Source of the DNA: Limisphaerales bacterium
Lineage (GTDB): Bacteria; Verrucomicrobiota; Verrucomicrobiia; Limisphaerales; AAA164-E04
Direction: 5' to 3'
NCBI GenBank assembly: GCA_965203425.1
Contig: OZ241891.1
Coordinates: 1,775,127-1,839,126 of the forward strand
Length of the DNA: 64,000 nucleotides
In this document: positions 2,934-28,050 of the stretch, piece by piece
How positions within the stretch are numbered: position 1 is the stretch's first letter
How the letters are laid out: each line of letters starts with the position of its first letter
Position numbers and translations under genes: made by a program
The notes under the pieces: generated by a model
Databases searched by the model: none
Seen by the model: the letters and a program-made list of their open reading frames with translations, nothing else
What the model was told of the DNA's origin: nothing

Positions 2934-2962
2934 ATCCTTTCACGCAAAAAGCAACTTTTAGA

Positions 2963-3991: not shown

Positions 3992-4002
3992 CCCATTTTT
4001 AT

Positions 4003-4272
4003 ATGACTGCCACAAACGAACCCAACTACGAGAAACCGCCTTTCGCCGCGGACATGGACGAAACGGACATCAACGTCCGCGCCTACTTCTCCCGCTTCTC
4101 CGACGACAAACTCCGCGAATACAACCCGGATTGGTCAGACGAACAAATCATCCAATGGGACGGCAATTTCCGCTCCGACGGCGCCTTAATGCTGGTCTGT
4201 TGCGAACGCGACGTCGAAATCGAAGAATACCGACGCATCCTCGAAGAACACATCCAGCTGCGCAAACTCTAA
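4003..4272 (+). CDS. hypothetical small acidic protein
   Basis: 89-codon ORF starting [11 protein letters not shown], between the cytochrome and the sulfatase. No recognisable motif. Confidence 0.35.
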
Positions 4273-4410
4273 GCCGCCTTTGCCGACAAGGAGAAAACCC
4301 CACAAACGTCCCGCGCCTTCTGCGGCCTTGCGGAAATTGGTGTCAGCGGATATTGAGTCTTGCCCTTTTGATTCGTCTCGCTTAAAGTTTTCCCAACTCA
4401 TTTTTAATTT

Positions 4411-6027: not shown

Positions 6028-6161
6028 TAAAAAAGCGAATCGCCTTTATGGAAACAGCGAATTTGTGGATCTCGTTTTTGTTGGGCATTGCAAGTCCTTC
6101 GTCCGCAAGACTAATGTGACGCGCCGAGCGGAAACGACTCGGAATCGTATCGAACGAAACA

Positions 6162-7783: not shown

Positions 7784-7904
7784 AAATGAGCCATTCTGTC
7801 TTTACGCACATAGCGCGCGGCGATTGCGGGGGTTTGAATTTTTCAAAGAGACGCAAGAGCGCCCTCATACCGATCCAGATAAAATTCGGCCTTGTTGTGT
7901 GTTG

Positions 7905-9359: not shown

Positions 9360-9429
9360 ATTTTTTATTTTGTTTATTCCTTCTGTTGCAAAAGTCTTGG
9401 CTGAGGATCTGGATTTCGGAGAGCCCATT

Positions 9430-9916
9430 CCTCGACGGCCGGGAACGGAAAAGGTTCGTTTCGGGATCGTCGATAAATCGTTCGCAAACTGATCCTATTC
9501 TTAACTTGCGTTTCAAAATCCAAGCAATCGCCGCCGCATGACAAGTGATGTGAGAGCGGCGCATCACTTCGGCGTGGGCCGCGGGGAAAGCCTCGAGTAG
9601 TGCGGATGTTGTCGAAAAAATCGCGAGAATGCGAGGCAACGTCGAGGCCTCGTTCCCGTGTCAATTCGTTTTGAAGAGAATTCAGGAGAGACTTTGGTTC
9701 TCCTTCGATCTGGCCGCTATCGCCGGTTTCTACCCAACCCGCCGCGCCGACAAATCGAACCGGGCAAGTTCCAAACCTTGTGATGTAATGCGGCGAACGA
9801 TCTCCGAACGGCTCTTTCAGAAAATCAAGCACCAGCCGCACTTCATTGGCGTAACGGCAGACTACATTTTCCGCAGTCGGCTCATATTCCGCAGGCATCG
9901 TCTCTTCCGAAATCAA
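9430..9916 (-). pseudogene. C-terminal fragment of a Gfo/Idh/MocA-type oxidoreductase, frameshifted and lacking the Rossmann domain
   Basis: ...HSRDFFDNIRTTRG in ORF 9374..9916 continues in another frame (ORF 9250..9639) as AHAEVMRRSHITCHAAAIAWILKRKLRI...ERFIDDPETNLFRSRP. This is the typical C-terminal signature of the family. No N-terminal half lies upstream. Confidence 0.5.
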
Positions 9917-10295
9917 TCACGGGATGACAATAAGCCAATCCCCGCCCAAGAAAAAGAGAAACTAAAAACCGCTATTTCAAGGGGATTTTTCAATCTAGGA
10001 TTTGTAATAATTGACTACCAGAGTGCAACTACCAGCCGCTATCAGTATTTTGTCGATAACATCCAGTTGGGAAGCCTCCAGATAATGCCAACTAACAGGC
10101 CAAGCCAAATGCCAAGCTCGGATTGCAAGCAGACCAAAAAGACACGCAAAAATACTCCAAATTCCGAGAATAAAAATTATATTCAGATTTTCTCTGCTTT
10201 TCTCAATTCGCTTTTCATCGCCGGTTAATCCTTCGTCAATATCTTCCTTGCCTTTGCCGCTAGGTTTTTCCGTTTTTGTCTTTCCAAGAATTTTT

Positions 10296-10789
10296 CTAAT
10301 CTTCTTTGGTTCTTGCGATATAGTAATCTCTAATATCTCCTTTAGGTATCACAACTCCAAAACTATCCTGATTCTTGCCATCGACCCATGTTTTGTACCA
10401 AGGCGATCCTTTTTCGTGCGTCAATTCGGACAGTTGCCACGGCGTCCAATCACGGTAAAATTCCCAAATCTCGTCCAAAAACTCGATTGTATCATTGTCG
10501 GCCATATCTTCGAGAGTCTTCATTTTCGCCTCGATTCCCGTCTTCGCCTCGTCTTTGATGGGACGTTTGCCGTATCCCTTGAAAGCATCATAAACGCCTC
10601 GGACAACGGGTCCGTGCTTCCCTCAACATCTTCTCGAATCAAAGGTCGGTCTATCCCGTAAAGCCCAAGATGCCAGCCGTGCGCCAGATAAACGAGTTTG
10701 ATGAGTTTCAAAATGCCTATCTCTTGCTTTGCTTCCCTTGCCCGTTCGACAAAGTAATTCGCAACGACAATTGCGGGGAAATCTTTCAT
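10296..10789 (-). pseudogene. Panacea / DUF4065 (SocA-GepA-like antitoxin-type) domain protein, frameshifted near 10620
   Basis: MKDFPAIVVANYFVERA...ILKLIKLVYLAHGWHLGLYG...EDVEG is followed, in another frame, by KHGPVVRGVYDAFKGYGKRPIK...MKTLEDMADNDTIEFLDEIWEFY. Joined, these give the DUF4065 hallmark (W/K)xGPVV..VY..FK.YG. Confidence 0.6.
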
Positions 10790-11585
10790 GCGCCAATTCC
10801 TCCTTTCTTTTGGAGACGACGGCGGACAATCACAAAAGCCAGCGCAAACAAGCCAAACACGAGCGCATATTCCGCAGGTTCTGGAATAAACGATCTGGAA
10901 ACGCCTATGTTGACTGATCCAGATGCCAGATAAGGCGCCTGAGGCCAAAGTCCATCACTCCTTCTCGTCCAAAGAGGCGAGTTCCCAAAGTCGCTGATTG
11001 GTTTGTCCATAATGCCGGCGCCAATCAATTGGAATACATTATTGGAAGAATAAACCAGATTGGGAGGAGTAATGCGAATTCCAATCTCATCGTAATTCGC
11101 AGTGTCGTTCATAAAAATCTTGCCGATGGTTCTTGAGGCAACAACCGAATACTCATCTCCAACAATGCGGATTGCTGGCGCGTTGGTATCGTTGGCAGTA
11201 AAGGACGACGTTCTGTAACCACCTCCCGGAAGTCTGTTTTGAACAGACTCGATGTCTATGGCATTGGTGCTTCCAAACAAGGGAGTAAGATTGAAAAACT
11301 GGTTGGTTGGCTTGTTAGCGGGGTAAAAGTCGGCGGCACTGCCAATTTGCCAAGAGTCTCGTGCGTGATAGGTGCCGCTGCTTCGAATGCTGCTGGGGTA
11401 ATGCGCGGTGGCAAAACCTCCTCGAAAAATCCACAGGGTTTTGTTGGTGTTGTCTTGGCTGGGATAGTGTTGATATGAAGTTGCGCTTGAGCGGTTGTTG
11501 CCGTCCAAATCAGAGCCAATCCCGTCAGAGCCAGCCAAAAGAAGCCGAGAGCCGTCCGTTTCGTCCATAATGCGTTGAATCTCAT
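10786..11585 (-). pseudogene. PEP-CTERM-anchored secreted protein (paralog of 48075..48890), with its signal peptide in a different frame
   Basis: The C-terminus IPEPAEYALVFGLFALAFVIVRRR is a PEP-CTERM sorting signal. The signal peptide MRFNALWTKRTALGFFWLALTGLALIWTATTAQAQLHI (ORF 11256..11585) is out of frame with the body ...YQHYPSQDNTNKTLWIF. The paralog reads AQAQLYIHIYPSQDSPTNQTLWIF in a single frame. Confidence 0.7.
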
Positions 11586-16225: not shown

Positions 16226-16664
16226 TCCTTTGCCAACAACCTGCAACGCACTCAACCAACACAAATAGAACACTAAGCCGTTGCAAAACGCCCAAAAATC
16301 AAAAAACAGCCCAGCCAACCACCAAAAATCGAAGAAAAATCCCGCAATCCACCAAAAAAAGACGAGAAAAAGCAAAAAAGTCGAAAAAACTTGCGCTCAA
16401 GGTTGATTTTTGATTTTCTTGCGTTTGGAAGTTTTTTCGGTGAAGAGATTCCTTTGTCAGGTCTCCCGCTGAATATCACAGTTTAATCTTGATGATGGTC
16501 TCGGGAGAGCCGTATACATCTTTCCTGTTGCTCCGGCAAACAGGCAGAACGTTTTTCGCATCTCTTTGCTGAATTAACTTCCAATCCGGCCTGAACGGAG
16601 GCATGAAGTGTGTTTTCGTTATGTTCAGGCCATAGACAGTAAAAATTGGAATTGTTTTCGGCTT

Positions 16665-17477
16665 ATGGAACATTTATTTGACACAGTTCTCAACGGATCG
16701 TTGAGCTTTGACGGAATCGCAACTGCGGCCTTGCCGCCGCTAATCGTTGCGGGAGGCCTCGCTCTCCTCGCATTCATCCTCGCAACACTCGCCGCCTTCC
16801 AAAAGCGGCCGAGCCAACAATCGGCCAAAGCCCTTCCCAACTTCGGAACGCTTTGGATTCTCGGCATCGCCGCCAGCATCTTGTCCACCGCGCAGACCCC
16901 AACCGCGCAAGCCGAGGCAACGCACGGCTACCGAGATGCAGGCTGTAACTGCTCGCCAAACCGCATCCCAGGCGAAATTATCAGGACGCGTACACAGCCC
17001 TACATCATTCACATGCCAGACACTTACGTGCCGAACTGCAAAAACGACTATCGCGTCAGCAACGTGAGAAACTGCGAATCCGTTGCTTACGACTGGCATT
17101 ACCGCTATCTGTGCTATTGGGAAGATGGCTATTGGGCCTGTTTGTACGCCAGGGCGGACGACTGTTTGGACGACGGAGTAATAGGTGGTGGAATAACTGA
17201 ACTCGCCGGCCTCTTATCTGCAATTGAGAGCAAGGGCAAGCCTACTAATTGGAGCAAACTCGTGAAGCAGACTCCGTACCGGGTTGTTGCGGGCTTTTTA
17301 GTTGGTTGGGTAAGATGTTGGGTTTATACTGAGGCTGCAAAAGCGGAATGGGATGCATGTGCAACCACTTGGAGTGAGCGAAACTGGAATCAGTGGGATG
17401 AATTTTGCGACGCCTTAGTGAACATAAGAAAAGACGTGGCGGATGAAGGCGAGTTTCACGATTGCACGGAGGACTAA
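16665..17477 (+). CDS. hypothetical Cys/Trp-rich membrane-anchored or secreted protein
   Basis: Two N-terminal hydrophobic segments (LPPLIVAGGLALLAFILATLAAF; FGTLWILGIAASIL) are followed by a domain with about 12 Cys. No recognisable family. Confidence 0.5.
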   Translation: MEHLFDTVLNGSLSFDGIATAALPPLIVAGGLALLAFILATLAAFQKRPSQQSAKALPNFGTLWILGIAASILSTAQTPTAQAEATHGYRDAGCNCSPNRIPGEIIRTRTQPYIIHMPDTYVPNCKNDYRVSNVRNCESVAYDWHYRYLCYWEDGYWACLYARADDCLDDGVIGGGITELAGLLSAIESKGKPTNWSKLVKQTPYRVVAGFLVGWVRCWVYTEAAKAEWDACATTWSERNWNQWDEFCDALVNIRKDVADEGEFHDCTED

Positions 17478-17503
17478 TTTGCGGAGAACTGAGTAAGAAA
17501 GAA

Positions 17504-17866
17504 ATGAAGGCAAAAACTCGATGCATTTTGTTTGAGGGAATCGCTTTGGCGGTGTCCATTCCTTCTATATTGGCGCTGGCCTTTGACGCGCCCCGCTCTT
17601 TCCTTTGGGCTTGCTTGTCTCTGCAGGTTACAGCGATTGCGATGGTGATACTCTTTAAGGTCAAGCGGTGGGGTTGGTACAGAAATCCTCCGTCTGATAC
17701 TATCGATGAAAAGACAAGCGACAACATATCCGCGCTGGGAATGTTGGCCTTTGTTGTGGTGTTTGGCTTGGCGATATTTTTGCCGCAGGTTTGGAAAGGG
17801 ACAGATGCGCCAACGGAAGCGGCGGAGACCGAGGAGAGTGAATTGCGCAATAGCATTGAGAATTAA
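17504..17866 (+). CDS. small 3-TM membrane protein with an acidic tail (paralog of 17894..18253)
   Basis: MKAKTRCILFEGIALAVS... shares its architecture and local motifs (MK..K..I.EG; W/LY(R/K).xP) with the next ORF. Confidence 0.5.
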   Translation: MKAKTRCILFEGIALAVSIPSILALAFDAPRSFLWACLSLQVTAIAMVILFKVKRWGWYRNPPSDTIDEKTSDNISALGMLAFVVVFGLAIFLPQVWKGTDAPTEAAETEESELRNSIEN

Positions 17867-17893
17867 GACTTGGAAAACTAAAGACTGGAAACT

Positions 17894-18253
17894 ATGAAAA
17901 CTACGAAAAAAGCCATAATCATTGAAGGATTTGGAGGACTTGTGTTCTTTTTCATGTTCTTAGGACTTTTCTACGATGTGCCAGTTCTCTACATTTTGCT
18001 TGGCATGCCGCTCACGTGGCTTGCGTTCATGTTCGTTGGCGAGAAGTTTGGGTTGTATAAGAAGGAACCAAACAAGGTTCCCGTTTCTGATAGAACGGAG
18101 AATTTCTTGTTTATTTCTGCTATGATTACCGCTGCTTTGGGGGCTATTGTTGTCACGCATTTTTTCCCGCACGGCCAAAAAGAAGGAATTGGAAGTGATA
18201 AACACGCCAACCGTTCCGCCCGTTTTAGAACGAGAAAGACCGCAATCACCTGA
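17894..18253 (+). CDS. small 3-TM membrane protein (tandem paralog)
   Basis: MKTTKKAIIIEGFGGLVFFFMFLGLF... has the same hydrophobic layout as the preceding ORF. Confidence 0.5.
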   Translation: MKTTKKAIIIEGFGGLVFFFMFLGLFYDVPVLYILLGMPLTWLAFMFVGEKFGLYKKEPNKVPVSDRTENFLFISAMITAALGAIVVTHFFPHGQKEGIGSDKHANRSARFRTRKTAIT

Positions 18254-18905
18254 AGTCGTTCAAGAAGAACCAGCCGTCCGTCCTCCCTTCCGGGAGATTG
18301 TTCCCGAAGCTGTTCCTCCACTAGCGCAAGAAGTTCCTTGTTGCGGTGGTGATTTGCCCGAAGGGGAATCTCCGCAACAAGCAAGGGAAGAAGGCGTGCC
18401 AAGGCGGGAAGATGGTTGGCATCCGTTGATGGAAGAAGTGCCGCCCGAAGACATTGTGGAATATGCCGAGAGTGTCTTTCAAGATTCGGAAAACGAGCCG
18501 GCGGAAGAATCTGAGGGAGATTGGGTGGAAGAATCTGGCTTGGATTGGGACAAGGCGCGCTTGGAGTTGTTGGAGCAGTTTGAAGGTTGGCAGAAAGCGT
18601 CTTTGGCGGCGGCGATGTTGGAGGCCGAGCAGTTTATGGAAGTGATGAGCGAGGAAGACGCGCGTTGGATTCAAGAGAAAGATCAGCGGCAGTTTGACGC
18701 AGCACAACACCCAAACCCTTCCTCAAAACATGCCGCTTTGTTTTACAAATCGTTAGAGATGACCGCGGCGGTGAATCGCAGTCAGGCTTCGGCAGTGGCC
18801 AAAGAGATTCGGGCGGAGATTGCGCGGCGAACGAGGGAACTGCATCAGGAATTGGAAGATCCCGGCCCGCCGCCCAGACTGCAATTTGAAGAAGAAGGAC
18901 GATAG
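18195..18905 (+). CDS. hypothetical acidic, Pro/Glu-rich protein
   Basis: Long ORF 18147..18905. The GTG at 18195 is preceded by AAGGAA. The start is uncertain, and the ORF could be joined to the preceding gene by a frame change in the CAAAAAG run. Confidence 0.4.
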   Translation: MINTPTVPPVLERERPQSPEVVQEEPAVRPPFREIVPEAVPPLAQEVPCCGGDLPEGESPQQAREEGVPRREDGWHPLMEEVPPEDIVEYAESVFQDSENEPAEESEGDWVEESGLDWDKARLELLEQFEGWQKASLAAAMLEAEQFMEVMSEEDARWIQEKDQRQFDAAQHPNPSSKHAALFYKSLEMTAAVNRSQASAVAKEIRAEIARRTRELHQELEDPGPPPRLQFEEEGR

Positions 18906-18929
18906 GTTTTTTCCTTCGTTGCTTGCGAT

Positions 18930-18971
18930 GCCCGCTTGGGAAAAGAGATTTTCCCGGCGGGCTTTTTTTTT
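18930..18971 (+). terminator. rho-independent terminator
   Basis: GCCCGCttGGGAAAAgagaTTTTCCCgGCGGGC followed by T9, located 25 nt after the stop at 18905. Confidence 0.6.
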
Positions 18972-19089
18972 GCGGTTAGCGGTTGGCAAAATGGCGGCGG
19001 CAATGGTTCTGAGCGAGAACAGAGCGGTTTTGGAAGTTGACGGATGGCAAAGAGAATCGGTAGTCTTTGCGGTTAAAATTCTTTGATTT

Positions 19090-20718
19090 ATGTTTGTTCA
19101 TATTCGGAAACATCAGAAGTGGCTTTTGGGTTTGATCGTGATCGTGGTGGGGATTTCATTCGTGGTTTTCTTCACGCCAAACGTTCAATACGGCAATTTG
19201 GACTTTTTTGGCGGCGGCAACGCGGTTGGCTCGATTGCCGGCCGTCCCGTCGCTCATAAGGAATTCAGAGAGGCTTATCAAGAAACGATGCTGTTCTTTG
19301 GCGAGCGGCAGGGCGTGAACTATGAGCAAGCAACGGCTAATCGCCTGCTTCTTCTGGAAAAAGCGAAAGAGCGTGGCATTGAAGTTTCGGAGGAGGCTGC
19401 CGCCAAATGGATTGTGAACGAGTTTAAGGATCCGGAAACGAATGAATTTCGGCGCGAATCCTACGACAACGCCGTGACCAATACCCTGCCCCGATACGGC
19501 ATGAACAAAGGAGACTTGCAACGGTTTGCGCGCAATCAGGTGGTCATTGGGCAGTTGCAAGAACTGGCCGGGCTTGTGGGCGAATTGGTAACGCCTCAGG
19601 AAGCTGAGCGGCTGTATCGAGAGCAAAACTTGCAGGCGAACACGCAGGCGGTTTTCTTTTCTTCGAGCGATTATGTGAACCTTGGCGAGAGTTTGGAGGG
19701 GCTGGAAGCCTTTTATACGAACCGCATGGCGCTTTATCGGGAGCCTGAAAAACGGCGGATTCACTATCTTGAGTTCGCCGCGACAAATTACTTGGCTGAG
19801 GCGAAAGAAAGATTGACCGAGTCCACTAACTTGGCGGAGATGATCAACGGAATTTATATGGAAAAAGGCACTAATTCGTTCACGAAGAACGGCGTTGTGT
19901 TGAGCGAAGAAGAGGCGAAAGAGCAAATTCAACGGCAAGAATTTAAGAAAGTCGGCCAAGAGATTGCCAAAGAAAAGGCAAAAGAGTTGGCGGAGGAGTT
20001 GTTCAACATCGAGCCAATGAAGGCCGAAAATCTGCCGGAGTTGGCCGCCGCCAAGGGCTACACGGCCGAAGTTTCCGAGCCCTTCGCCGCAGATCAATCT
20101 GTTCCCAGAATTGGCGATTCCTATGAACTAACGAGGCAAGTGTTTCAACTCACGGAAATCCCCTTCACTAGGGCGTTTCACACAGCGAACGGCACTTACT
20201 TGGTTGCGCTTCATAGCATTCTTCCCAGCGAAGTGCCGCCTTTGGAAAAGATTCGCGGCCAAGTGCAAACCGATTTTTACGAGCAAAAGTCTTTGGAAAA
20301 CGCCCGCGAAGCGGCGGCAACTTTTCATACCTCGCTGACCAACGAGCTGGCGCAGGGAAAGGCCTTCGAAGCCATTTGCAAAGAGGCCGGGCACGAGCCG
20401 ATTCAAATGCCCCTGTTTTCCCAAAGCAGTCGAACGCTTGCCGGCGCCGATCCTCGGGCGCACTTATATTTGTTGCAAAGCCTGGCCTTTGATCTTAAAG
20501 CGAGGGAAGTCAGCCGAGTTTCCCAAACCGAAGACGGCGCAATGATCCTTTTTGTGTATTCGTTCGTTGAGGCGAAGGAAGAGCAAGTGAAGGAGGAACT
20601 ACCCGATTACGCTAAAACCCTGCGGCAAAGACGCCGTTCAGAAGCCTTCGGCGGATGGTTTCAAGAAGAGCAGAAGTCGTTAAATTTTCCCTCCTCTTCA
20701 GCAAGCGACAACTTATAG
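19090..20718 (+). CDS. PpiD/SurA_N-like periplasmic chaperone, membrane anchored
   Basis: N-terminal anchor KWLLGLIVIVVGISFVVFF and a length and layout like PpiD. I did not see a clear parvulin signature. Confidence 0.5.
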   Translation: MFVHIRKHQKWLLGLIVIVVGISFVVFFTPNVQYGNLDFFGGGNAVGSIAGRPVAHKEFREAYQETMLFFGERQGVNYEQATANRLLLLEKAKERGIEVSEEAAAKWIVNEFKDPETNEFRRESYDNAVTNTLPRYGMNKGDLQRFARNQVVIGQLQELAGLVGELVTPQEAERLYREQNLQANTQAVFFSSSDYVNLGESLEGLEAFYTNRMALYREPEKRRIHYLEFAATNYLAEAKERLTESTNLAEMINGIYMEKGTNSFTKNGVVLSEEEAKEQIQRQEFKKVGQEIAKEKAKELAEELFNIEPMKAENLPELAAAKGYTAEVSEPFAADQSVPRIGDSYELTRQVFQLTEIPFTRAFHTANGTYLVALHSILPSEVPPLEKIRGQVQTDFYEQKSLENAREAAATFHTSLTNELAQGKAFEAICKEAGHEPIQMPLFSQSSRTLAGADPRAHLYLLQSLAFDLKAREVSRVSQTEDGAMILFVYSFVEAKEEQVKEELPDYAKTLRQRRRSEAFGGWFQEEQKSLNFPSSSASDNL

Positions 20719-20809
20719 CGTGTTCGTTGCGGAAAACGCCCCAGAAGAATTGAAATGAGATGTCGAGCAAAATGGATGGTTCCCAGAATTAAAATTCGCG
20801 TTTAAATGA

Positions 20810-20838
20810 TTGACAATGGCAGGAAACTCGGTTATTTT
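20810..20838 (+). promoter_or_regulatory. sigma70-like promoter candidate
   Basis: TTGACA-N17-TATTTT, ending 10 nt upstream of the ATG at 20848. Confidence 0.35.
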
Positions 20839-20847
20839 ACGGGCTTT

Positions 20848-21647
20848 ATGAGATTTTGGAAACCAATCATTGCGATAGTTTCCGCATGCTTTGCCGGCGG
20901 ATTCTGACAAACAACGGCGCAAGTTGTGACAATCCGTGATCCGAATACGGGGGATTTCGTCAATGTGGAGAAAACGGAACCGCTTGAGATTCATTACACC
21001 GATTCAAGCGACACTACTTACACTCTGCAGGTAGCGAAAGATGTCGAGGTTTTGGAATTTGTTGATCTAACCAGCCTAACTTTGCCTGAGGGTTTGACGA
21101 AGTTGCACACTCTGGAAATTGACTCCCGACCTGATGGTATTTTATTTCAATTGACAAGCCTGAACCTCCCCAAAGATATAGGAAAAGATGCGGACTGGCC
21201 GTTTCGATTGGTGCTGGGAAACCGTGGTGAGGAAGGAAAAGAGCAAAACGAACGGAGATCAATTCTTTTATTAGCGGTGCATAAAGATATGCGGCCTTTT
21301 TTGCTGATGTACCGGTTTTTACCGAACGATGGACCCTTTTCATTTCCGATTAGAATTCCGGCTGCGAAGGATTTGATAAGGAATCGAGAACCTGACGACG
21401 ATGGAGTTTTTAGAATTGACATGTCCCATATTTTTGGAGAGGGGTTGATGTTATTGAAGTTCATGGCGTTCCGCCGAGGATATGGTTGAACCGTCAAGAA
21501 GGAGGCGTCGAGATTGTTTGGGATCGAGGCCAGTTGCAGTCCGCTCCCAGCATCGACGGACCTTGGACGGACATCACTTTTGACGATACGCGCCGTCTTT
21601 TTCTCCGCTCTTCCAGTCCTGCCGAGTTCTTTCGGGTAAAGCCATAA
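20848..21647 (+). pseudogene. lipoprotein-type secreted protein, interrupted by an in-frame TGA and a 3' frameshift
   Basis: MRFWKPIIAIVSACFAGGF (lipobox-like VSAC), then TGA at 20905-20907, then the same frame continues into ORF 20926..21489. The last ~75 codons (...VEIVWDRGQLQSAPSIDGPWTDITFDD...AEFFRVKP) are in another frame and end at 21647. Confidence 0.5.
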
Positions 21648-21874
21648 TCCCGACAGCACAAAAAGCCCGGCGCGGTAAAGGCGCAGTCTCGCGTGGAGCG
21701 GCGTTGACTGGGCGTCTAACGAAGATCAGTTTGAAAGGTTGTCGGATGAAGACTTGGCGTCAATGGAAGAGAACTTGGGGAACGCGATTACGGAAGGCGA
21801 TCAATCGAAGGCGCAATCGCGTAACTGCAAGCCGAGCAAGCCCGCAAACGATCTGCTGAAATGAGGAGAAGTCG

Positions 21875-22950
21875 ATGCAACTGAACTACGCGGTAGTGCA
21901 TCAGCTAGTGAAGGAAGCCGGGGCACCCGGGGCGGGAGTGAATTTGGCGCAGACCCTGCTGGGTGCGGAGAATCCCGTAGTCGTCGACTTGGTCGACCGG
22001 CTCGTGGGCCTTATCGGCCAGCGGGAGAACATGGCGCACTACGGTGTGTTCCGCGACGACCCTGCGAGCACGAGGGTCCCGAGCATAGTGAAGAGCTACT
22101 GTATGGAGACAGAGCCAACGTCCGGCGATTTTCTGTCACTGACGAACGATTGCATGGCTGCGCTCCGTGATAGGGCTGGATCACAAAACTTGGCCACCGG
22201 CGGCTATCTGTTGTTCGCGGACTACTTCAGCACGGACAGGTTTCTGCTGACCGCAATGATCAAGCAGCGTTCCGGCATCACGATGGATGGGTTGGTGCCT
22301 ACGAGCATCACGGAACTCGACCTGCGCAAGCTTCACCAAGTCGCGCGCGTCGTCTTCGACCGGCTGCGTCAGTACGAAGAAGCTGCGGCGGAACGACAGG
22401 ACATGACCTACGTATCGTTCGTCAGTCCGAAGGGAAACCGGGAGGCGGCGGGCTATTTCGTCACGGCGTTGGGATGCACGCCGGGGACGCCAGCGGCAGC
22501 CGCGACCAGAGGTGTGATTGTTGGGACCAGTGAATTTTTGGCACTCGCAAATCTATTCGGTCCGAGGGATACGAAGCTAGAGCGGAACTGATCGATCTCC
22601 TTCGCAGGAAGGCTGATAACAAGGAGCGCGTCAGCTTATACGATGTCGTCGAAGTCATCCGGAGATATTTCCCGCCAGAAGAGGCGGACGATTTAGCGAA
22701 CGAATTCGTTGCGCACCTGCAAAGCGAAACCCGCAGAGTCCCTATGGAATTCCCGGTGGCGAAGGCAGTCGTCAACCGATACACCCGGTTTACGTACCGG
22801 AGCAACCAGTTGAAGGTGGATATCGAGAAAGCCGCGGTGACACTCGAAGACAGCGGGCCAATCTACTTCGACCGGGAACATCGTAGGCTGGTGATTTCGG
22901 AGGAAGAATTCATCGCCAAGTTGGACGCCGCCTTGCAAGACGATGAGTAA
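21875..22950 (+). pseudogene. NA37 / NdpA (YejK)-like nucleoid-associated protein, with a frame change near 22555-22570
   Basis: MQLNYAVVHQLVKEAG... start and ~350-aa joined length. ORF 21875..22591 continues in frame +1 as ...ARAELIDLLRRKADNKERVSLYDVVEV...MEFPVAKAVVNRYTRFTYRSNQLKVDIEK... to 22950. GGAG lies before the ATG. Confidence 0.6.
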
Positions 22951-24142
22951 TCCACAACCGCTAGCCGACGCGGTCGGGTTGTACCGTCGCGTCGGATGTC
23001 CGAAGTGGAGCGATCGGCAGTTCCGTGGAGAACTAGATTATGCCGAATCACACGAACTCCTGGGTCGGCTGCGCAAGCAGAGCGTGAAGGATGGTCGCCT
23101 CGACGAGCTGAAGGTCGACGGCAAGTGGGTTCTGAGCGGAGAAGAACTGCCCGCGACGGGCAATCGCGCTACGTTCGCCTTCAGCACCTCAACACAGGAT
23201 GGTGCCCGGTTTTTTCGCGGCGTTGCGGAACTGGTGGGGAGCTATCATCCCTTGGGGCGGGGGAAGCTTCCAGGTCGCTTCTATCTGGTCGATGAAGATT
23301 ATCAGCACGGTGGGGACGAGACATCACCCGATACTGTTCGGAATCTCATCGAATTGACACGATTCGTCACGGCGCTGACAGAGCTCGCCGATCACAAGTA
23401 CGAGACCGAGGGCACCGGCGCCTGGACGCTGGTGTTCCGCACCAAAGACGGCCTGGGCATGTTGGAGACGAGGTTCGGTGAGGAACTGCTGGGCGTAAAG
23501 GTGCCATCCGTCGCCTGGGAAGTGGTGGAGGGTCTGCGCATGGGCTCCGACGGTATCCATCAGAAGGAAAAACGGTGGATGTTCAGGGCCACGATGTGCG
23601 AGTTCCTGAGAGATGGTGTGCCATTTCGCGAATTCGTCGAGCGCGGTGCGCAATGGTCGAAAGCGTACGAGGACGACCTGCACACCTACCTGAGCGGTTT
23701 CTCGTTCGAGGAAGTGAAACGCAAGATCGCGGAGGAACAGGCCCGATTCACCGAGCAGATCTCGACGATCCTGGGAGACATCACAGTCAATGTACTGAGT
23801 CTGCCGCTGTCGGTGGCTGTCGTCATGATCCTGAAGACGCAGACCGCGAATTGGACTGAGTGGCTTTCGATTCCGTTATTGTTGGTAGTAGCGTTCGCTA
23901 TTACTTGCCTCGTCCGCCATTACCAACGGGTAGTTCCTTGTGTGGAGAAGGACATCTACAGAGTTTTCGGCAAAATGAAAACCAGAGATCCTGTTGTTCC
24001 CCCCAAGGAACTGGAGAACAACGTCAAGGAAACAGTGGAGTCTCTACAGAACGAGATCGGAAAACTCCGCACAACGTTCTGGATTTATTTGTTCGCGGTT
24101 TGGGCGGTACTAGTCATCGGCGTCCTCATGGTGCTATATTAA
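22943..24142 (+). CDS. hypothetical protein: unassigned soluble N-terminal domain plus three C-terminal TM segments
   Basis: 399 aa. The start overlaps the upstream stop (ATGAGTAA). TM segments: ITVNVLSLPLSVAVVMIL, WLSIPLLLVVAFAITCLV, FWIYLFAVWAVLVIGVLMVLY. Confidence 0.6.
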   Translation: MSNPQPLADAVGLYRRVGCPKWSDRQFRGELDYAESHELLGRLRKQSVKDGRLDELKVDGKWVLSGEELPATGNRATFAFSTSTQDGARFFRGVAELVGSYHPLGRGKLPGRFYLVDEDYQHGGDETSPDTVRNLIELTRFVTALTELADHKYETEGTGAWTLVFRTKDGLGMLETRFGEELLGVKVPSVAWEVVEGLRMGSDGIHQKEKRWMFRATMCEFLRDGVPFREFVERGAQWSKAYEDDLHTYLSGFSFEEVKRKIAEEQARFTEQISTILGDITVNVLSLPLSVAVVMILKTQTANWTEWLSIPLLLVVAFAITCLVRHYQRVVPCVEKDIYRVFGKMKTRDPVVPPKELENNVKETVESLQNEIGKLRTTFWIYLFAVWAVLVIGVLMVLY

Positions 24143-24203
24143 AGAGATGGAGAGGCGGGAAATGGGCGCGAACCGCTGGAGGCGATTGGGTGAACCGGGA
24201 AGG

Positions 24204-25115
24204 TCAATTTCGGGAGTCGGGCGGGGATTCAAATTCGAATTCGTCGTCTTCGAGTTCCAATCTTGTTCGTCGCGACAACTTCAAGCGCACAAAGCCGTAT
24301 ACCAGATAGGCGGTGAACAGCACGGGAAGTATCACCGGCAAAATTTGGTTCTGCAAAATGAGGATGAGTCCGATAAAAATCACCGCGCCGGCGCTTTTTA
24401 GAAAAGTGCTGCGCGTTCGAAATCCGACACTTTTGAAGGAGGGATAGCGCACTTCGCTAATCATCATCATCGAGAGAAAGAACATAATCACCGGCAAAAC
24501 ATACCGCCACGAACCAGTGGAAAAACCTTTTTCGTCAATCCATAAAATAAACCAAGTTAGCGAGGCCACCAAACCGGCCGCTGCGGGAATCGGGAAGCCC
24601 AAAAACTCTTTTTTACTGTCTTGGTTTTGTTCGGCTGCCAAGCAGTTGAACCGGGCCAAGCGGAGTGCGCCGCAGATAAGATAGATGGAGGCAATGAACC
24701 ATCCGATTTCTGGGCGGCCGACGAAAACGTCTTTGAGCACGATGCGATGCACCAAAAATGCCGGCGCCACACCGAAGGAAACGATGTCCGCCAAAGAATC
24801 AAACTCCCTTCCAAAAGGGCTTTCCAGTCCGCCCATGCGAGCCACTCGCCCGTCCAGAAAGTCAAAGAGGCAGGCCAGCAAAATGAACAACAAGGCGCGA
24901 TAAATCATGCTGGTGAAGTCCTCTCTTTGCGGATTGGCTTGGACAATGCTGGTAAGCGCGACGAAACCGCAGAAGAGATTGCCGGCGGTCATCAGATTCG
25001 GGAGCAGGTAAATCTTCAGGCGGGCGTCTGTTGAGTTGGGAAGGGCGTGGCGGCTTGTTGACCGGCGCAGTGGCTCTTTTTTCGTTCCGGCTTGTTTTTT
25101 CCGCATCATCGGCAC
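24204..25115 (-). CDS. pssA: CDP-diacylglycerol--serine O-phosphatidyltransferase
   Basis: CDP-alcohol phosphatidyltransferase motif DFLDGRVAR...GREFDSLADIVSFGVAPA. N-terminus LPNLMTAGNLFCGF. Multiple TM segments. Confidence 0.85.
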   Translation of the reverse strand: MPMMRKKQAGTKKEPLRRSTSRHALPNSTDARLKIYLLPNLMTAGNLFCGFVALTSIVQANPQREDFTSMIYRALLFILLACLFDFLDGRVARMGGLESPFGREFDSLADIVSFGVAPAFLVHRIVLKDVFVGRPEIGWFIASIYLICGALRLARFNCLAAEQNQDSKKEFLGFPIPAAAGLVASLTWFILWIDEKGFSTGSWRYVLPVIMFFLSMMMISEVRYPSFKSVGFRTRSTFLKSAGAVIFIGLILILQNQILPVILPVLFTAYLVYGFVRLKLSRRTRLELEDDEFEFESPPDSRN

Positions 25116-25410
25116 GGTATTTTAGGGGAAAGACGCTGTCAAGGGAAAGCCGAATTTGGGAAGATTTCCTTTTTCTCTGACTCTTTGCGCGGGCATTCCT
25201 TTCTCCTTGAAACTGTTGTGAAAGAACGCTAAATCCGCCGTCGACAATGGTTTGCGTTCGTTTTGTCGCGATTGGGAGGAAAAATTGCGCGGGTTGCTTT
25301 GAGTCCGTCTTGCGAGAATGTGTTTGAAACCAGCGGGGAGGAGTTTGTATTCTTACTCCCCGAATGGAGTTCAAGTTGTCAGTCGTTTTCCGGGCGAACC
25401 GCAGGATTTC

Positions 25411-26178
25411 ATGAAGAATCAGAGCGTATCCGCAGCGCGGGAGGCTTTCGCTCTTGGGCAGGAAAAACAGCCCGCGGCGGAAGATTTTTGCCAAAAAAAC
25501 GAGGGCGTCTTCCATCGGGTTGGCCGCTGGATTCTGTCTAATCTCGGCGACAAAAGAGATGGCGAATATCAAATTGCGCTGAAGTTTTTGGAGGATTGCA
25601 AAAACATATTGGACGTCGGTTGCGGCACGGGAACGTTTCTCGCCAAACGGCCGGACGCCATTTTAGGCGTGGACGTCAATCCGGAGAATGTTGAGTATTG
25701 CAGGCGGCAAGGGCTTCGAGCGGCGGTGGGCGACGCTCTGGCTTTGGAGTTTGACGATCAAGTTTTTGACGGGGTCCATTGCTCCCATTTGATGCAGGTA
25801 TTTCTTCCAGATCAGGCCGCGCAGTTGATCAAGGAACTCACTCGTGTGACTCGGAAGGGAGGGAAGATTGTTGTCACCACGCAGAACTGGTTTTCTCGAT
25901 TTTATCGACATCCAGAAAATGTTCGACCTTATCCTCCCGACGCCATTGGGCGCTATTACTATGCTCGACGAGGTTCGGTTTCTCCGATGTATCCGGGTCT
26001 TCCCCGCCTGCGGCAGCAAGGCATTCGTCTGCGGCGCCCTCCCCTTGTGGAATTATATAGTTCGACTCGTCCCACCTTGGATCGAGTGTTCGCGGTGCTG
26101 AACACGATTCAATACGCTTTTTATTTGCGAAAATTTTGGAGTTATGACGCCTATACGGCAATGTTCCGGCGGGAATAG
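25411..26178 (+). CDS. class I SAM-dependent methyltransferase
   Basis: Motif I ILDVGCGTGTFL and motif ...FDGVHCSHLMQ... The start was chosen at the internal Met of ORF 25318..26178. Confidence 0.75.
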   Translation: MKNQSVSAAREAFALGQEKQPAAEDFCQKNEGVFHRVGRWILSNLGDKRDGEYQIALKFLEDCKNILDVGCGTGTFLAKRPDAILGVDVNPENVEYCRRQGLRAAVGDALALEFDDQVFDGVHCSHLMQVFLPDQAAQLIKELTRVTRKGGKIVVTTQNWFSRFYRHPENVRPYPPDAIGRYYYARRGSVSPMYPGLPRLRQQGIRLRRPPLVELYSSTRPTLDRVFAVLNTIQYAFYLRKFWSYDAYTAMFRRE

Positions 26179-26253
26179 CCTATGGTTCGGAAAAAGAGGC
26201 CGTTTCCACATTGGGCTTGAGCGGCGAGCGCAGATTTCTAAAATTCTTTCTAG

Positions 26254-26541
26254 ATGGAAAGCGCAGATTTCAACATCGATTATACCGCCAAATTAGCTCG
26301 AATCGAGTTGACGGAATCGGAGCGGAAGGAATACGGTTCGCAACTGGCCGACATTCTTCGGTATGTTAAGAAACTTCAGGAGCTGAACGTCGAAGGAGTG
26401 GAACCAACCGCTCATCCCGTTCCATTGCGTAACGTGCTCCGTCCCGACGTCGTGGAGCCGTCGCTCTCGACCGAAGAAGCCTTGAAAAACACGCCGCGGC
26501 GGGACGGCAGGCTCTTCCAAACGCCCAAAATTGTGGAATAG
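26254..26541 (+). CDS. gatC: Asp/Glu-tRNA(Asn/Gln) amidotransferase subunit C
   Basis: 95 aa. AKLARIELTESERKEYGSQLADILRYVKKLQELNVEGVEPTAHP. Located immediately upstream of gatA. Confidence 0.9.
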   Translation: MESADFNIDYTAKLARIELTESERKEYGSQLADILRYVKKLQELNVEGVEPTAHPVPLRNVLRPDVVEPSLSTEEALKNTPRRDGRLFQTPKIVE

Positions 26542-26574
26542 TTTGGGAAAGAGTCAAACCGGCAAAAAACATTC

Positions 26575-28050
26575 ATGCTCAACGAACTTAGCATTGCCGA
26601 GGCAAGACAAAAGCTGTTGGCAAAAGAGATCCGCGCCGTGGAACTCGTCGAAGCATGCCTGAATCGGATGGATGCCGTTGACGACAAATGCCGCGCTTTT
26701 CTCAGCTGGAATGCGGAGGCGGCTTTGGAACAAGCGGTCGCGGCGGACGCACTTCCCCAATCCGAAAAATCGAAGAAACCTCTCTTGGGCATCCCAATCG
26801 CCCTCAAGGATAACTTGGCCGTCAAAGACGAACGGCTGTCTTGCGCGTCCAAAATTCTGGAAAACTTCGTTTCTCCTTACGACAGCACCGTTGCGGAGAA
26901 ATTAAAGCAATCCGGCGCCATTCTTATGGGACGGCTGAATCTCGACGAGTTTGCGATGGGCAGTTCCACCGAAAATTCCGCCTTCGGCTCTACAAAGAAT
27001 CCGTGGGATATAAATCGCGCTCCGGGCGGTTCCTCAGGAGGCGCGGCGGCGGCGGTGAGTTCTGATCAATGCATTGCGGCCTTGGGTTCGGACACCGGCG
27101 GCTCGATTCGCCAACCTGCGGCCTTTTGCGGTTGCGTCGGCCTCAAACCCTCCTATGGACGCGTCTCGCGCTACGGTCTGGTGGCCTTTGCTTCTTCGCT
27201 GGATCAAGTCGGGCCCCTCACAAAAACCGTTGCCGACGCCGCCATGCTTCTCCAGATCATTGCTGGCCAAGACCTGCGCGATTCCACAAGCGTTTCCGAG
27301 CCAGTTCCCAATTTCGCATCTGACCTCGAGGATTCGGTGAATTTTGTTCGAGGATTGAAAATTGGCCTGCCAAAAGAGTACTTTGTCGAAGGTTTGAATG
27401 CGGAAGTTCAAGCCGCCATTGAAGACGCCGTCCGAACGTTTGAGAACCTCGGAGCGGAGATTTTAGAAGTCTCCCTGCCCCATTCCGAATACGCCGTTGC
27501 TGCCTACTATTTGATCGCCACGGCGGAAGCCAGCGCCAACCTCGCCCGCTTTGAAGGGATTCGATACGGACTCCGAGTGGAAGGCGAAGACCCCTTTCAG
27601 CTTCACTCAAAAACTCGCGGGCACGGGTTTGGCGCAGAAGTCAAGAGACGAGTCCTTTTAGGCACCTACACCCTCAGCTCCGGCTACTACGACGCTTATT
27701 ATCTCCGGGCGCAAAAGGCGCGGACACTAATCCGGCAGGATTTCCTTGACGCCTTCAAAAAAGCAGACCTGCTTCTCACTCCCACAACGCCGACACCGGC
27801 CTTTCTCATCGGAGAGAAAACTTCCGACCCGATCCAGATGTATCTTTCGGACATTTTCACCATTCCGGCGAACTTGGCGGGAAATTGCGCCATCAGCCTG
27901 CCGTGCGGATTTGCTCAGAATCCAAAATTGCCGATCGGACTCCAACTCTTGGGCAAATCCTTTGGAGAAACCGCCTTGTTGAAGGCGGCGCACGCCTTCG
28001 AGCAAATCGCCGAGTGGAAACGGCACAAACCGGAGATTGGACGCTTTTGA
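26575..28050 (+). CDS. gatA: Asp/Glu-tRNA(Asn/Gln) amidotransferase subunit A
   Basis: Amidase signature GGSSGGAAAAV...GSDTGGSIRQPAAFCG and typical GatA termini. Confidence 0.95.
   Translation: MLNELSIAEARQKLLAKEIRAVELVEACLNRMDAVDDKCRAFLSWNAEAALEQAVAADALPQSEKSKKPLLGIPIALKDNLAVKDERLSCASKILENFVSPYDSTVAEKLKQSGAILMGRLNLDEFAMGSSTENSAFGSTKNPWDINRAPGGSSGGAAAAVSSDQCIAALGSDTGGSIRQPAAFCGCVGLKPSYGRVSRYGLVAFASSLDQVGPLTKTVADAAMLLQIIAGQDLRDSTSVSEPVPNFASDLEDSVNFVRGLKIGLPKEYFVEGLNAEVQAAIEDAVRTFENLGAEILEVSLPHSEYAVAAYYLIATAEASANLARFEGIRYGLRVEGEDPFQLHSKTRGHGFGAEVKRRVLLGTYTLSSGYYDAYYLRAQKARTLIRQDFLDAFKKADLLLTPTTPTPAFLIGEKTSDPIQMYLSDIFTIPANLAGNCAISLPCGFAQNPKLPIGLQLLGKSFGETALLKAAHAFEQIAEWKRHKPEIGRF

What the first reader, a model, noticed from the sequence alone, without database searches (positions are those of the whole stretch)
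21660..24203. Compositionally distinct two-gene module: NA37/NdpA-like DNA-binding protein coupled to a membrane-anchored protein of unknown family
- **First gene.** ORF 21875 starts MQLNYAVVHQLVKE... With its continuation in frame +1 (to 22950) it gives a ~350-aa product that I recognise as the NA37/NdpA(YejK) nucleoid-associated family.
- **Coupling.** Its stop overlaps (ATGAGTAA) the start of a 399-aa ORF. That ORF has a ~270-aa N-terminal domain I cannot assign to any family, followed by three hydrophobic helices at the C-terminus.
- **Composition.** By eye the block is richer in G+C and uses CAG/AAG/GTC/GAC codons, whereas flanking genes prefer CAA/AAA. It is wedged between a decayed lipoprotein gene and the 3' end of pssA, which looks like a horizontally acquired insert.
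- **Known context.** NdpA-like proteins are carried by mobile elements; for example, plasmid pCAR1 encodes one.
- **Hypothesis.** A nucleic-acid-binding protein paired with a membrane-spanning partner is the layout of many abortive-infection or defence modules. This pairing could be an undescribed defence or MGE-maintenance system.
- **Caveat.** The NA37 gene carries a frame change near 22555-22570, so it may be inactive or the assembly may be wrong at that point.
Basis: partly seen in the sequence, partly recalled or inferred. Interest (0 to 1): 0.7.

Follow-up and report, generated by a model that had tools for sequence, protein, structure and literature searches.

The report
Nucleoid-protein plus membrane-protein anti-phage pair
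This is a real, horizontally moving two-gene unit, a YejK-like DNA-binding protein plus a membrane protein, that belongs to a kind of anti-phage defence system first described in 2025-2026, and the copy here reads as broken by a one-base deletion in its first gene.

Summary

- **First gene.** After restoring one T in a T-run (22535-22539), 21875-22950 encodes a full-length NA37/YejK-like protein (Pfam E=1.7e-35).
- **Second gene.** 22943-24142 overlaps it by 8 nt. It encodes a 399-aa protein with a ~270-aa soluble domain and three C-terminal hydrophobic helices.
- **Pairing.** An NA37 gene sits directly upstream of every relative of the 399-aa protein that could be checked: 11/11 genome loci, 24/24 metagenome loci, 4 close relatives, 3 E. 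coli prophages and a Klebsiella phage.
- **Mobility.** The module DNA (21860-24141) is 82% identical to copies in unrelated contexts that carry restriction-modification genes.
- **Known relatives.** Both proteins are homologous to DS-1, an experimentally validated E. coli anti-phage pair (Science 2026). The architecture matches "Type II PANGU" (bioRxiv 2026).
- **Proposed mechanism.** In that model the nucleoid protein senses phage-induced genome degradation and activates a membrane effector.
- **Novelty.** The pair is a new, divergent member in an uncultured lineage, not a new system.
- **State of this copy.** The sensor gene is frameshifted here. It is also frameshifted, independently, in two other genomes. 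Real decay and homopolymer sequencing error cannot be told apart here.
- **Composition.** The compositional signal is weak.

The parts
21863..21868 (+). GAGGAG ribosome-binding site. It lies at the 5' edge of the DNA shared with copies of the module elsewhere (similarity starts at 21860-21861).
   Evidence: Read directly from the sequence. blastn of L015 and L016 against the window starts at 21861 and 21860.
21875..22950 (+). NA37/YejK-like nucleoid-associated protein gene, the presumed sensor (PagA-like or DS-1A-like). It is 358 aa once repaired. As assembled it is split into 21875-22591 (238 aa) and a second frame that runs to 22950.
   Evidence: PF04245 E=1.7e-35, full length. NCBIfam YejK E=9.7e-27 and DS1_1_antiphage E=1.3e-20, both below the equivalog cut-offs. 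phrog_3767 E=2.5e-49. PDB 9be2 YejK E=5e-10. 28% identity, E=6e-58, to the E. coli prophage protein WP_001460784.1.
22535..22539 (+). Frameshift site. The T5 run here has one base fewer than in the relatives, which have T6 or T7.
   Evidence: Codon-level DNA alignment with L015, L016 and L017 shows a single 1-nt gap at 22533/22534. L047 reads ...GTNEFFGARESIRSEGYEARAEL... through this site.
22943..24142 (+). 399-aa presumed membrane effector (DS-1B-like, with the architecture of Pag2B). It overlaps the NA37 stop by 8 nt.
   Evidence: No Pfam or PADLOC hit. phrog_5023 E=2.2e-32, full length. NCBIfam DS1_2_antiphage E=1.6e-8, below cut-off. hhalign of the family alignment against DS-1B gives probability 99.0%, E=5.7e-18, over 315 columns. 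BLASTP against the E. coli prophage partner gives E=6e-36. The family has 747 cluster representatives at E<=1e-3.
22943..23764 (+). N-terminal soluble alpha/beta domain (residues 1 to ~274). It is mildly acidic (pI 5.5, net charge -7) and is the presumed docking domain for the nucleoid protein.
   Evidence: AlphaFold2 pLDDT is mostly 80-95 over residues 10-250. No Foldseek match in PDB or BFVD below E=0.7. Charge computed.
23684..23707 (+). Most conserved motif of the family, TYLSGFSF (residues 248-255), just ahead of the first hydrophobic helix.
   Evidence: Alignments A1, A2 and A3. This motif is also what blastn used to find the E. coli copies.
23777..23926 (+). Hydrophobic helices 1 and 2 (about residues 279-300 and 306-328). 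Helix 1 carries the invariant P288 and the conserved S290.
   Evidence: Hydropathy scan. Long helices in the model. Invariant and nearly invariant columns in A2 and A3.
24068..24139 (+). C-terminal hydrophobic helix 3 (about residues 376-399).
   Evidence: Hydropathy scan and model.
20719..24167 (.). Variable spot between the PpiD-like gene and the 3' end of pssA. Its content differs among close relatives.
   Evidence: L047 carries an extra 4.4-kb insert with a UvrD-like helicase. L045 has a different methyltransferase gene and no module, and its similarity to the window resumes at 24168. L017 is syntenic with the window over 16655-24171.
20788..21647 (+). Frameshifted gene for a ~260-aa secreted protein. 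It is a neighbour and is not part of the mobile module.
   Evidence: A 1-nt deletion in a T-run at about 21430 relative to L017. The gene is split at a different site in L017 and intact at 260 aa in L047. L015 and L016 share no similarity with this stretch.

Best explanation
**What it is.** The block 21860-24141 is a two-gene anti-phage defence module of the 'nucleoid-associated protein plus effector' kind. It has the architecture of Type II PANGU and is a distant homologue of DefensePredictor DS-1.

**How it most likely works.** These steps are taken from the published relatives and were not shown here.
1. The YejK-like protein coats chromosomal DNA.
2. An infecting phage degrades the host genome, which frees that protein.
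3. The freed protein binds the N-terminal soluble domain of the 399-aa membrane protein.
4. This activates the three-helix membrane part, which damages the cell envelope.
5. The infected cell stops growing before phage progeny are released (abortive infection).

**History and state of this copy.**
- The module arrived by horizontal transfer into a variable spot between a PpiD-like gene and pssA.
- The sensor gene carries a 1-nt deletion in a T-run in this assembly. As written, the system is off.
- I cannot decide whether that is a true mutation or a homopolymer read error.
For: **Shown here**
- The repaired first gene is a full-length NA37 protein.
- The two genes overlap by 8 nt.
- An NA37 homologue lies directly upstream, on the same strand, of every homologue of the second gene that has room for it.
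  - 11/11 genome loci from Pseudomonas, Vibrio and Candidatus Moraniibacteriota.
  - 24/24 metagenome loci.
  - Close relatives L015, L016, L017 and L047.
  - Three E. coli lambdoid prophages.
  - Klebsiella phage P7641.
- The second gene is homologous to DS-1B (hhalign probability 99.0%, E=5.7e-18).
- Both genes hit the NCBIfam models DS1_1_antiphage and DS1_2_antiphage.
- The module DNA is 82% identical to copies in L015 and L016, where the flanks are unrelated.
- Those flanks hold Vsr plus Dcm, N6_N4 methylases, a ResIII enzyme and AAA_15/AAA_21 genes.
- The Vibrio copy follows an MmeI-type enzyme, a helicase and a T5orf172 protein. The Moraniibacteriota copy lies next to a serine recombinase and a TraG-like protein.
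- Both genes are under purifying selection, with dN/dS of 0.22-0.41.

**From the literature**
- DS-1, an NA37 protein plus a 404-aa protein, was among the cloned units that protected E. coli (PMC13092281).
- In Type II PANGU (Pag2A nucleoid protein, Pag2B with an N-terminal acidic domain and a C-terminal transmembrane domain), both genes are needed against T4.
- Neither PANGU gene is toxic on its own.
- Pag2A leaves the nucleoid on infection and binds the Pag2B N-domain with a KD of 19 nM (10.64898/2026.04.06.716658).

**Inference**
- The sensor gene is independently frameshifted in the window, in L047 and in E. coli 214-4, and the partner is intact each time.
- That fits a sensor that activates the effector. 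It does not fit an antitoxin.
Against: - No experiment bears on this copy or its clade.
- Similarity to DS-1 is remote. Scores are 34 and 74 bits, against equivalog cut-offs of 315 and 330.
- The sequence of the tested PANGU Pag2B was not available, so homology to it is untested.
- The N-terminal domain is only mildly acidic (net -7). Pag2B is described as densely acidic.
- In the window itself the checked neighbours are housekeeping genes, not defence genes.
- How Pag2B-type effectors act is unknown even in the published work.
- The sensor gene is frameshifted as assembled.
Confidence: 0.75

Rival explanations
1. The identity is the same, but the frameshift is an assembly artefact. The real genome would have one more T at 22535-22539, and the system would be intact and active.
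For: - The deletion lies in a homopolymer.
- Two other apparent 1-nt frameshifts in the window also lie in homopolymers. One is in a G7 run at 6894, inside a DNA methylase whose repaired product gives one continuous PF01555 hit. The other is in a T-run at about 21430.
- The window's own proteins come from a single 4.23-Mb contig. I take that as a possible sign of long-read assembly, but the sequencing method is unknown.
- dN/dS of the window's NA37 is no higher than in intact copies.
Against: - L047 comes from a different assembly and has an independent frameshift in the same gene at a G3 site, which is not a long homopolymer.
- A complete E. coli genome also has a frameshift in this gene. Real inactivation of the gene therefore does occur.
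- Runs of 7 to 16 identical bases survive elsewhere in the window.
Confidence: 0.4
2. The pair serves a mobile element rather than defence. A plasmid- or phage-borne nucleoid protein (as I recall for Pnd of pCAR1) would organise or silence foreign DNA, with a membrane partner that tethers it.
For: - Copies lie in prophages, next to a serine recombinase and a TraG-like protein, and near a DUF927 primase-helicase gene.
- Two plasmids carry distant relatives of the second gene.
- From my own knowledge, NdpA-like proteins are known on plasmids.
Against: - The distant homologue DS-1 and the architecturally matching Type II PANGU were shown to block phages, the latter needing both genes.
- In the window and in L015-L017 the pair is not inside a recognisable mobile element.
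- Prophage accessory slots next to hokD and ParDE-type genes are typical places for defence cargo.
Confidence: 0.1
3. The pair is a toxin-antitoxin-type addiction module. The membrane protein would be a constitutive toxin that the NA37 protein neutralises.
For: - It is a two-gene overlapping operon with a membrane protein.
- In E. coli prophages it sits next to other toxin-antitoxin genes.
Against: - The NA37 gene is broken in three genomes while the membrane gene stays intact. That would be lethal if NA37 were the antitoxin.
- The PANGU study found neither gene toxic on its own.
Confidence: 0.05
4. The first gene is the organism's housekeeping YejK nucleoid protein, and its neighbour is unrelated.
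For: The best NCBIfam hit by E-value is YejK, and a solved YejK structure matches.
Against: - The score is 94 bits against an equivalog cut-off of 341.
- The partner is strictly conserved across phyla.
- The pair is absent next to pssA in the close relative L045.
- It occurs at unrelated genomic sites in L015 and L016.
Confidence: 0.03

Closest known systems
Type II PANGU (Pag2A/Pag2B), Li et al., bioRxiv 10.64898/2026.04.06.716658
   Same: - It is a two-gene operon with a YejK-like nucleoid protein first.
- The second protein has an N-terminal soluble (acidic) domain and a C-terminal transmembrane region.
- It occurs in E. coli mobile DNA and spreads across phyla.
   Different: - The sequence of the tested Pag2B could not be compared, because the supplementary table is not held.
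- The window's N-terminal domain is only mildly acidic.
- The host is an unidentified uncultured lineage.
- The sensor gene is frameshifted here.
DefensePredictor DS-1 (working ID D390: WP_000355468.1 + WP_000150292.1), Science 2026, PMC13092281; NCBIfam NF053868 and NF053869
   Same: - It has the same gene order and sizes (391 aa plus 404 aa).
- The first protein is an NA37 protein.
- The second protein is homologous over 315 columns (hhalign probability 99.0%).
- It was experimentally validated as anti-phage in E. coli.
   Different: - The relationship is very distant. The NA37 proteins share 21% identity (E=2e-10).
- Both window proteins score far below the equivalog cut-offs.
- DS-1A has an extra N-terminal zinc-ribbon-like stretch (NinF-like hit) that the window protein lacks.
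E. coli lambdoid-prophage pair WP_001460784.1 + WP_001460783.1 (strains 602354 and E203449; frameshifted in 214-4), and the pair in Klebsiella phage P7641
   Same: - These are the closest named relatives found. The NA37 proteins match at E=6e-58 (28% identity, full length).
- The partners match at E=6e-36 (26% identity over 298 aa).
- They show the same 8-nt overlap.
- One copy also has a frameshift in the sensor gene.
   Different: - They are carried in a prophage accessory slot next to hokD and a Q antiterminator gene.
- I found no test of these exact genes. Whether this pair is the 'E. coli upec' PANGU system is unknown.
YejK/NdpA of E. coli (PDB 9be2) and the plasmid NdpA-like protein Pnd of pCAR1
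   Same: They share the NA37 fold family.
   Different: - From my own knowledge, these are stand-alone nucleoid proteins with no dedicated membrane partner.
- The window protein fails the YejK equivalog cut-off.
RexAB of phage lambda (from my own knowledge; an analogy only)
   Same: It is a prophage-borne two-gene abortive system in which a cytoplasmic sensor of DNA-related events activates a membrane protein.
   Different: Neither window protein hit any model in PADLOC-DB. Direct similarity to RexA or RexB was not tested.

Membership tests
NA37 / YejK-like nucleoid-associated proteins (PF04245) | Full-length match to the family HMM above the gathering score | tested here: met
   123.4 bits against a cut-off of 24.6, over profile positions 1-320 of 325. 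This holds only after restoring one base at 22535-22539.
YejK proper (NCBIfam NF001557, equivalog) | Score at or above the equivalog cut-off of 341 bits | tested here: not met
   94 bits.
DS-1 anti-phage system (NCBIfam NF053868 and NF053869, equivalogs) | Both proteins score above the equivalog cut-offs (330 and 315 bits) | tested here: not met
   73.7 and 34.1 bits. The proteins are homologous but are not equivalogs.
DS-1 anti-phage system | The second protein is homologous to DS-1B along its length | tested here: met
   hhalign of A3 against DS-1B gives probability 99.0%, E=5.7e-18, over 315 collinear columns.
Type II PANGU | YejK-like protein of at least 300 aa with HMM E<1e-10 (the authors' criteria) | tested here: inconclusive
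   Met for the repaired 358-aa product. As assembled, the longest ORF is 238 aa.
Type II PANGU | Operon with the partner gene, with a gap of less than 40 bp | tested here: met
   The genes overlap by 8 nt. The same tight junction is seen in relatives.
Type II PANGU | The partner has an N-terminal acidic DNA-mimic domain and a C-terminal transmembrane domain | tested here: inconclusive
   The architecture is met: a soluble domain of residues 1 to ~274 and three hydrophobic helices. Acidity is modest (pI 5.5, net -7). DNA mimicry could not be assessed.
Type II PANGU | Sequence homology to the tested Pag2A and Pag2B | not testable with these tools
   The sequences are in a supplementary table that is not held.
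Type II PANGU / DS-1 | Protection against phage that requires both genes | not testable with these tools
   This needs an experiment.
Defence-island association (the criterion used to call PANGU-like operons) | Known defence genes within 10 kb | tested here: inconclusive
   - In the window, the neighbours checked by Pfam (19090-21647 and 24204-28050) gave housekeeping families or no family. The rest of the +/-10 kb was not scanned.
- The nearest defence-type gene seen is a frameshifted methylase at 6162-7780, about 14 kb away.
- The criterion is met for relatives L015, L016 and L011.

The most novel reading that the evidence does not exclude
The repeated one- or two-base frameshifts in the sensor gene might be more than decay or read error.
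- They occur at a T-run here, an A7 run in E. coli 214-4 and a G3 site in L047, and the effector gene is intact each time.
- They could be a reversible on/off switch, that is, phase variation of a costly abortive-infection system.
- The frameshifted G7 tract in the methylase gene at 6894 in the same window could be another example.
- Separately, this environmental clade (38 proteins of at least 47% identity) could be a mechanistically distinct subtype, because its docking domain is only mildly acidic.
Probability: 0.1. Interest if true: 0.5.

Novelty: new member of a known kind. Interest (0 to 1): 0.3.

Why it matters
- **Reach of the system.** The find extends a very recently described defence strategy, a chromosome-coating protein used as a sentinel for genome destruction, to an uncultured environmental lineage.
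- **Strength of the pairing.** The membrane-effector version is a tightly co-inherited pair. The partner family has 747 cluster representatives, and it was never seen without an NA37 gene wherever this could be checked.
- **Two practical by-products.**
  - A family alignment and a confident model of an N-terminal domain with no structural relatives. Both could guide work on how this class of effector is switched on, which the published studies leave open.
  - Natural sensor-dead, effector-intact alleles, which argue that the sensor is an activator and not an antitoxin.
- **For annotation.** Both genes can be renamed from 'hypothetical'.

Tried and rejected
**Searches that found nothing**
- PADLOC-DB 2.0 gave no hit for either protein.
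- Pfam gave no family for the 399-aa protein, only a chance-level CobD hit.
- Foldseek of the model against PDB and BFVD gave nothing below E=0.7.
- A profile search of the PDB with the partner family gave nothing meaningful.
- A viral-contig scan with the family found no relatives.
- A metagenome scan with the PpiD-like neighbour, meant to find an empty site, found nothing. The empty-site evidence came instead from contigs that carry gatA.

**Look-ups that failed**
- The look-up of encoding contigs had no record for P0001 or P0011.
- The cluster look-up returned no names, so the organism was not identified.
- The window holds no rRNA gene and only one tRNA gene.

**Analyses that were uninformative**
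- My scan for homopolymer frameshifts across the window flagged 53 sites, mostly adjacent genes that fuse by chance. Only the site at 6894 was verified.
- The promoter and terminator scan found no more than shuffled sequence gives.

**Corrected error**
- I first misread the DefensePredictor table and called the system DS-17. Table S11 shows that D390 is DS-1.

**Rejected readings**
- Housekeeping YejK.
- A toxin-antitoxin module with NA37 as the antitoxin.
- Composition as evidence of horizontal transfer.
Full report

Yes.
- ORF 21875-22591 begins MQLNYAVVHQLVKE. A second frame carries the reading on to 22950.
- Joining the two frames gives a 358-aa protein. It matches Pfam NA37 (PF04245) end to end, at 123.4 bits and E=1.7e-35, as one stretch across the junction.
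- It also matches a solved YejK structure (9be2, E=5e-10) and phrog_3767 'nucleoid associated protein'.
- The stop TAA at 22948-22950 lies inside ATGAGTAA, whose ATG at 22943 starts a 399-aa ORF.
- That protein has no Pfam or PADLOC family.
- It has three hydrophobic segments at about residues 279-300, 306-328 and 376-399.
- Its AlphaFold2 model has a confident alpha/beta domain over roughly residues 10-250, followed by long helices.

**2. Where the frame breaks**

- DNA alignment with three intact relatives places a single 1-nt gap at 22533/22534. The window has A-T5 where the relatives have T6 or T7.
- The repaired reading ...GTSEFFGTRKSIRSEGYEARAEL... agrees with relative L047 (...GTNEFFGARESIRSEGYEARAEL...).

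**3. Is the pair a unit?**

- The 399-aa protein has 38 close relatives of at least 47% identity, almost all from metagenomes.
- By exhaustive HMMER it has 747 cluster representatives at E<=1e-3, mostly about 400 aa and collinear.
- An NA37 homologue lies directly upstream, on the same strand, in every locus where upstream sequence exists.

| Source of loci | NA37 directly upstream |
|---|---|
| Species-representative genomes (nine Pseudomonas, one Vibrio, one Candidatus Moraniibacteriota) | 11 of 11 |
| Metagenome loci with room upstream (the other three have under 210 nt) | 24 of 24 |
| Close relatives L015, L016, L017, L047 | 4 of 4 |
| E. coli lambdoid prophages | 3 of 3 |
| Klebsiella phage P7641 | 1 of 1 |

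- Junctions are overlaps or gaps of a few bases.
- Both genes evolve under purifying selection, with pairwise dN/dS of 0.22-0.41.

**4. Is it mobile?**

- Composition is a weak signal. Module GC is 0.571, against 0.532 +/- 0.032 for same-size windows, and 11% of those windows are as GC-rich or richer.
- Codon preferences are shifted by roughly 1.5 SD.
- Comparative evidence is decisive. L015 and L016 share 82% DNA identity with the window over exactly 21860-24141 and nothing outside it.
- In the window's own lineage, the interval between the PpiD-like gene (ending at 20718) and pssA (3' end at 24204) is variable.
  - L017 resembles the window over 16655-24171.
  - L047 carries an extra 4.4-kb insert with a UvrD-like helicase.
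  - L045 has a different methyltransferase gene next to pssA and no module, and its similarity to the window resumes at 24168.
- Contexts elsewhere are rich in defence or mobile-element genes.
  - L015 has Vsr plus Dcm and an N6_N4 methylase.
  - L016 has a ResIII/endonuclease protein, an N6_N4 methylase, two AAA_15/AAA_21 proteins and a weak HicB-like hit.
  - The Vibrio locus has an MmeI-type enzyme, a DEAD helicase and a T5orf172 protein.
  - The Moraniibacteriota locus has a serine recombinase and a TraG-like protein.
  - Pseudomonas loci have a DUF927 primase-helicase and a PIN toxin.
  - In E. coli the pair sits in a prophage accessory slot next to hokD and, in one strain, ParDE.

**5. 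What is known**

Two recent papers cover this kind of system.
- **DefensePredictor (Science 2026, PMC13092281).** It validated 42 new systems in E. coli and lists a YejK nucleoid-associated domain as newly implicated in defence.
  - Its DS-1 (working ID D390) consists of WP_000355468.1 (NA37, 391 aa) and WP_000150292.1 (404 aa, hypothetical).
  - NCBIfam now has the equivalog models DS1_1_antiphage and DS1_2_antiphage. The window proteins hit them at E=1.3e-20 and E=1.6e-8, far below the cut-offs.
  - A 54-sequence alignment of the partner family matches DS-1B with hhalign probability 99.0% and E=5.7e-18 over 315 columns.
- **PANGU preprint (bioRxiv 10.64898/2026.04.06.716658).** It defines nucleoid-protein-plus-effector operons as PANGU.
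  - Type II pairs the nucleoid protein Pag2A with Pag2B, which has an N-terminal acidic 'DMK' domain and a C-terminal transmembrane domain.
  - Both genes are needed against T4, and neither is toxic alone.
  - The phenotype is abortive infection.
  - Pag2A leaves the nucleoid on infection, and it binds the DMK domain of Pag2B with a KD of 19 nM.
  - How Pag2B then acts is unknown.
- The window pair has exactly this architecture.
- Its nearest named relatives are the E. coli prophage pair WP_001460784.1 and WP_001460783.1, at E=6e-58 and E=6e-36.
- I could not compare it with the tested Pag2B, because that sequence is in a supplement that is not held.

**6. Mechanism**

- By homology and architecture, I propose the PANGU scheme. 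The nucleoid protein is released when a phage degrades host DNA, it docks on the N-terminal domain of the membrane protein, and this activates the membrane part to abort the infection.
- Only the parts list and the homology are shown here. Every functional step is inferred.
- One piece of new support comes from natural alleles. The sensor gene is independently frameshifted in three genomes, and the effector gene is intact each time.

| Genome | Change |
|---|---|
| Window | 1-nt deletion in a T-run |
| L047 | G3 to G2, at the position equivalent to window 22289 |
| E. coli 214-4 | A7 to A5 |

- That pattern could not be tolerated if the nucleoid protein were an antitoxin. It is expected if the protein is an activator.

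**7. Is this copy alive?**

This is unresolved.
- Pointing to homopolymer read error:
  - The window has two more apparent homopolymer frameshifts.
  - One is in a G7 run at 6894, inside a DNA methylase whose repaired product gives one continuous PF01555 hit.
  - The other is in a T-run at about 21430, in the neighbouring secreted-protein gene.
  - dN/dS shows no relaxation in the window's copy.
- Pointing to real inactivation:
  - The independent breaks in L047 and E. coli 214-4 show that this gene does get inactivated.
  - Long homopolymers survive elsewhere in the window.
- I put the chance of an artefact at about 40%.

**8. Verdict**

- It is not an undescribed system. It is a divergent new member, in an unidentified uncultured lineage, of the NAP-plus-membrane-effector defence kind (Type II PANGU architecture, DS-1 superfamily).
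- Its sensor gene reads as broken.
- Interest is modest. The value lies in annotation, in the strict co-occurrence data, in a confidently modelled N-terminal domain with no structural relatives, and in the sensor-dead alleles.

Noticed in passing
window 6162-7780 (+), G7 run at 6894: ORFs 6162-7025 and 6941-7780 merge into one 540-aa protein when a single G is added. The merged protein gives a continuous N6_N4 DNA-methylase hit (E=5e-44) that spans the junction, plus a weak Mrr_cat hit. This is either a frameshifted or phase-variable restriction-modification-type gene or a homopolymer read error.
   Followed up: partly
window 20788-21647 (+); L017 4946-5789; L047 7913-8695: The gene next to the module encodes a ~260-aa secreted protein with no Pfam family. 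It is split by a 1-nt deletion in a T-run (about 21430) in the window and at a different site in L017. It is intact in L047.
   Followed up: partly
window 21875-24142 compared with L017 and L047: The module looks mosaic. The window's NA37 is closest to that of L047 (dS 0.16, against 0.45 to L017). Its partner gene is closest to that of L017 (dS 0.24, against 0.52 to L047). This suggests recombination between the two genes.
   Followed up: no
L007 (Pseudomonas gorinensis NT2 chromosome) 6089-10888: Both genes of this pair appear to be interrupted by two copies of the same insertion-sequence-like element, seen as identical 326-aa ORFs at 6359-7339 and 8875-9855. This would be another way the module is inactivated.
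   Followed up: no
L047 3492-7894: A close relative carries an extra 4.4-kb insert at the same variable spot. It encodes a 288-aa protein, two small ORFs and a 691-aa UvrD-like helicase. It may be another defence cargo.
   Followed up: no
L003 3210-4052, L007 11279-12121, L010 12868-13728: A conserved ~280-aa protein with no Pfam family (N-terminus MNTIQELK...) lies downstream, on the opposite strand, of the pair in several Pseudomonas loci.
   Followed up: no
window 1416-6021 (+): This stretch encodes an amidohydrolase, a multihaem cytochrome c and a sulfatase. The organism was not identified.
   Followed up: no
window 40189-45384: This looks like a MoxR-type AAA ATPase operon with neighbouring DUF58-like and membrane-protein genes. 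I judged this by eye from translations made while testing for frameshifts. The adjacent genes fuse under artificial one-base edits, but they are separate genes.
   Followed up: no
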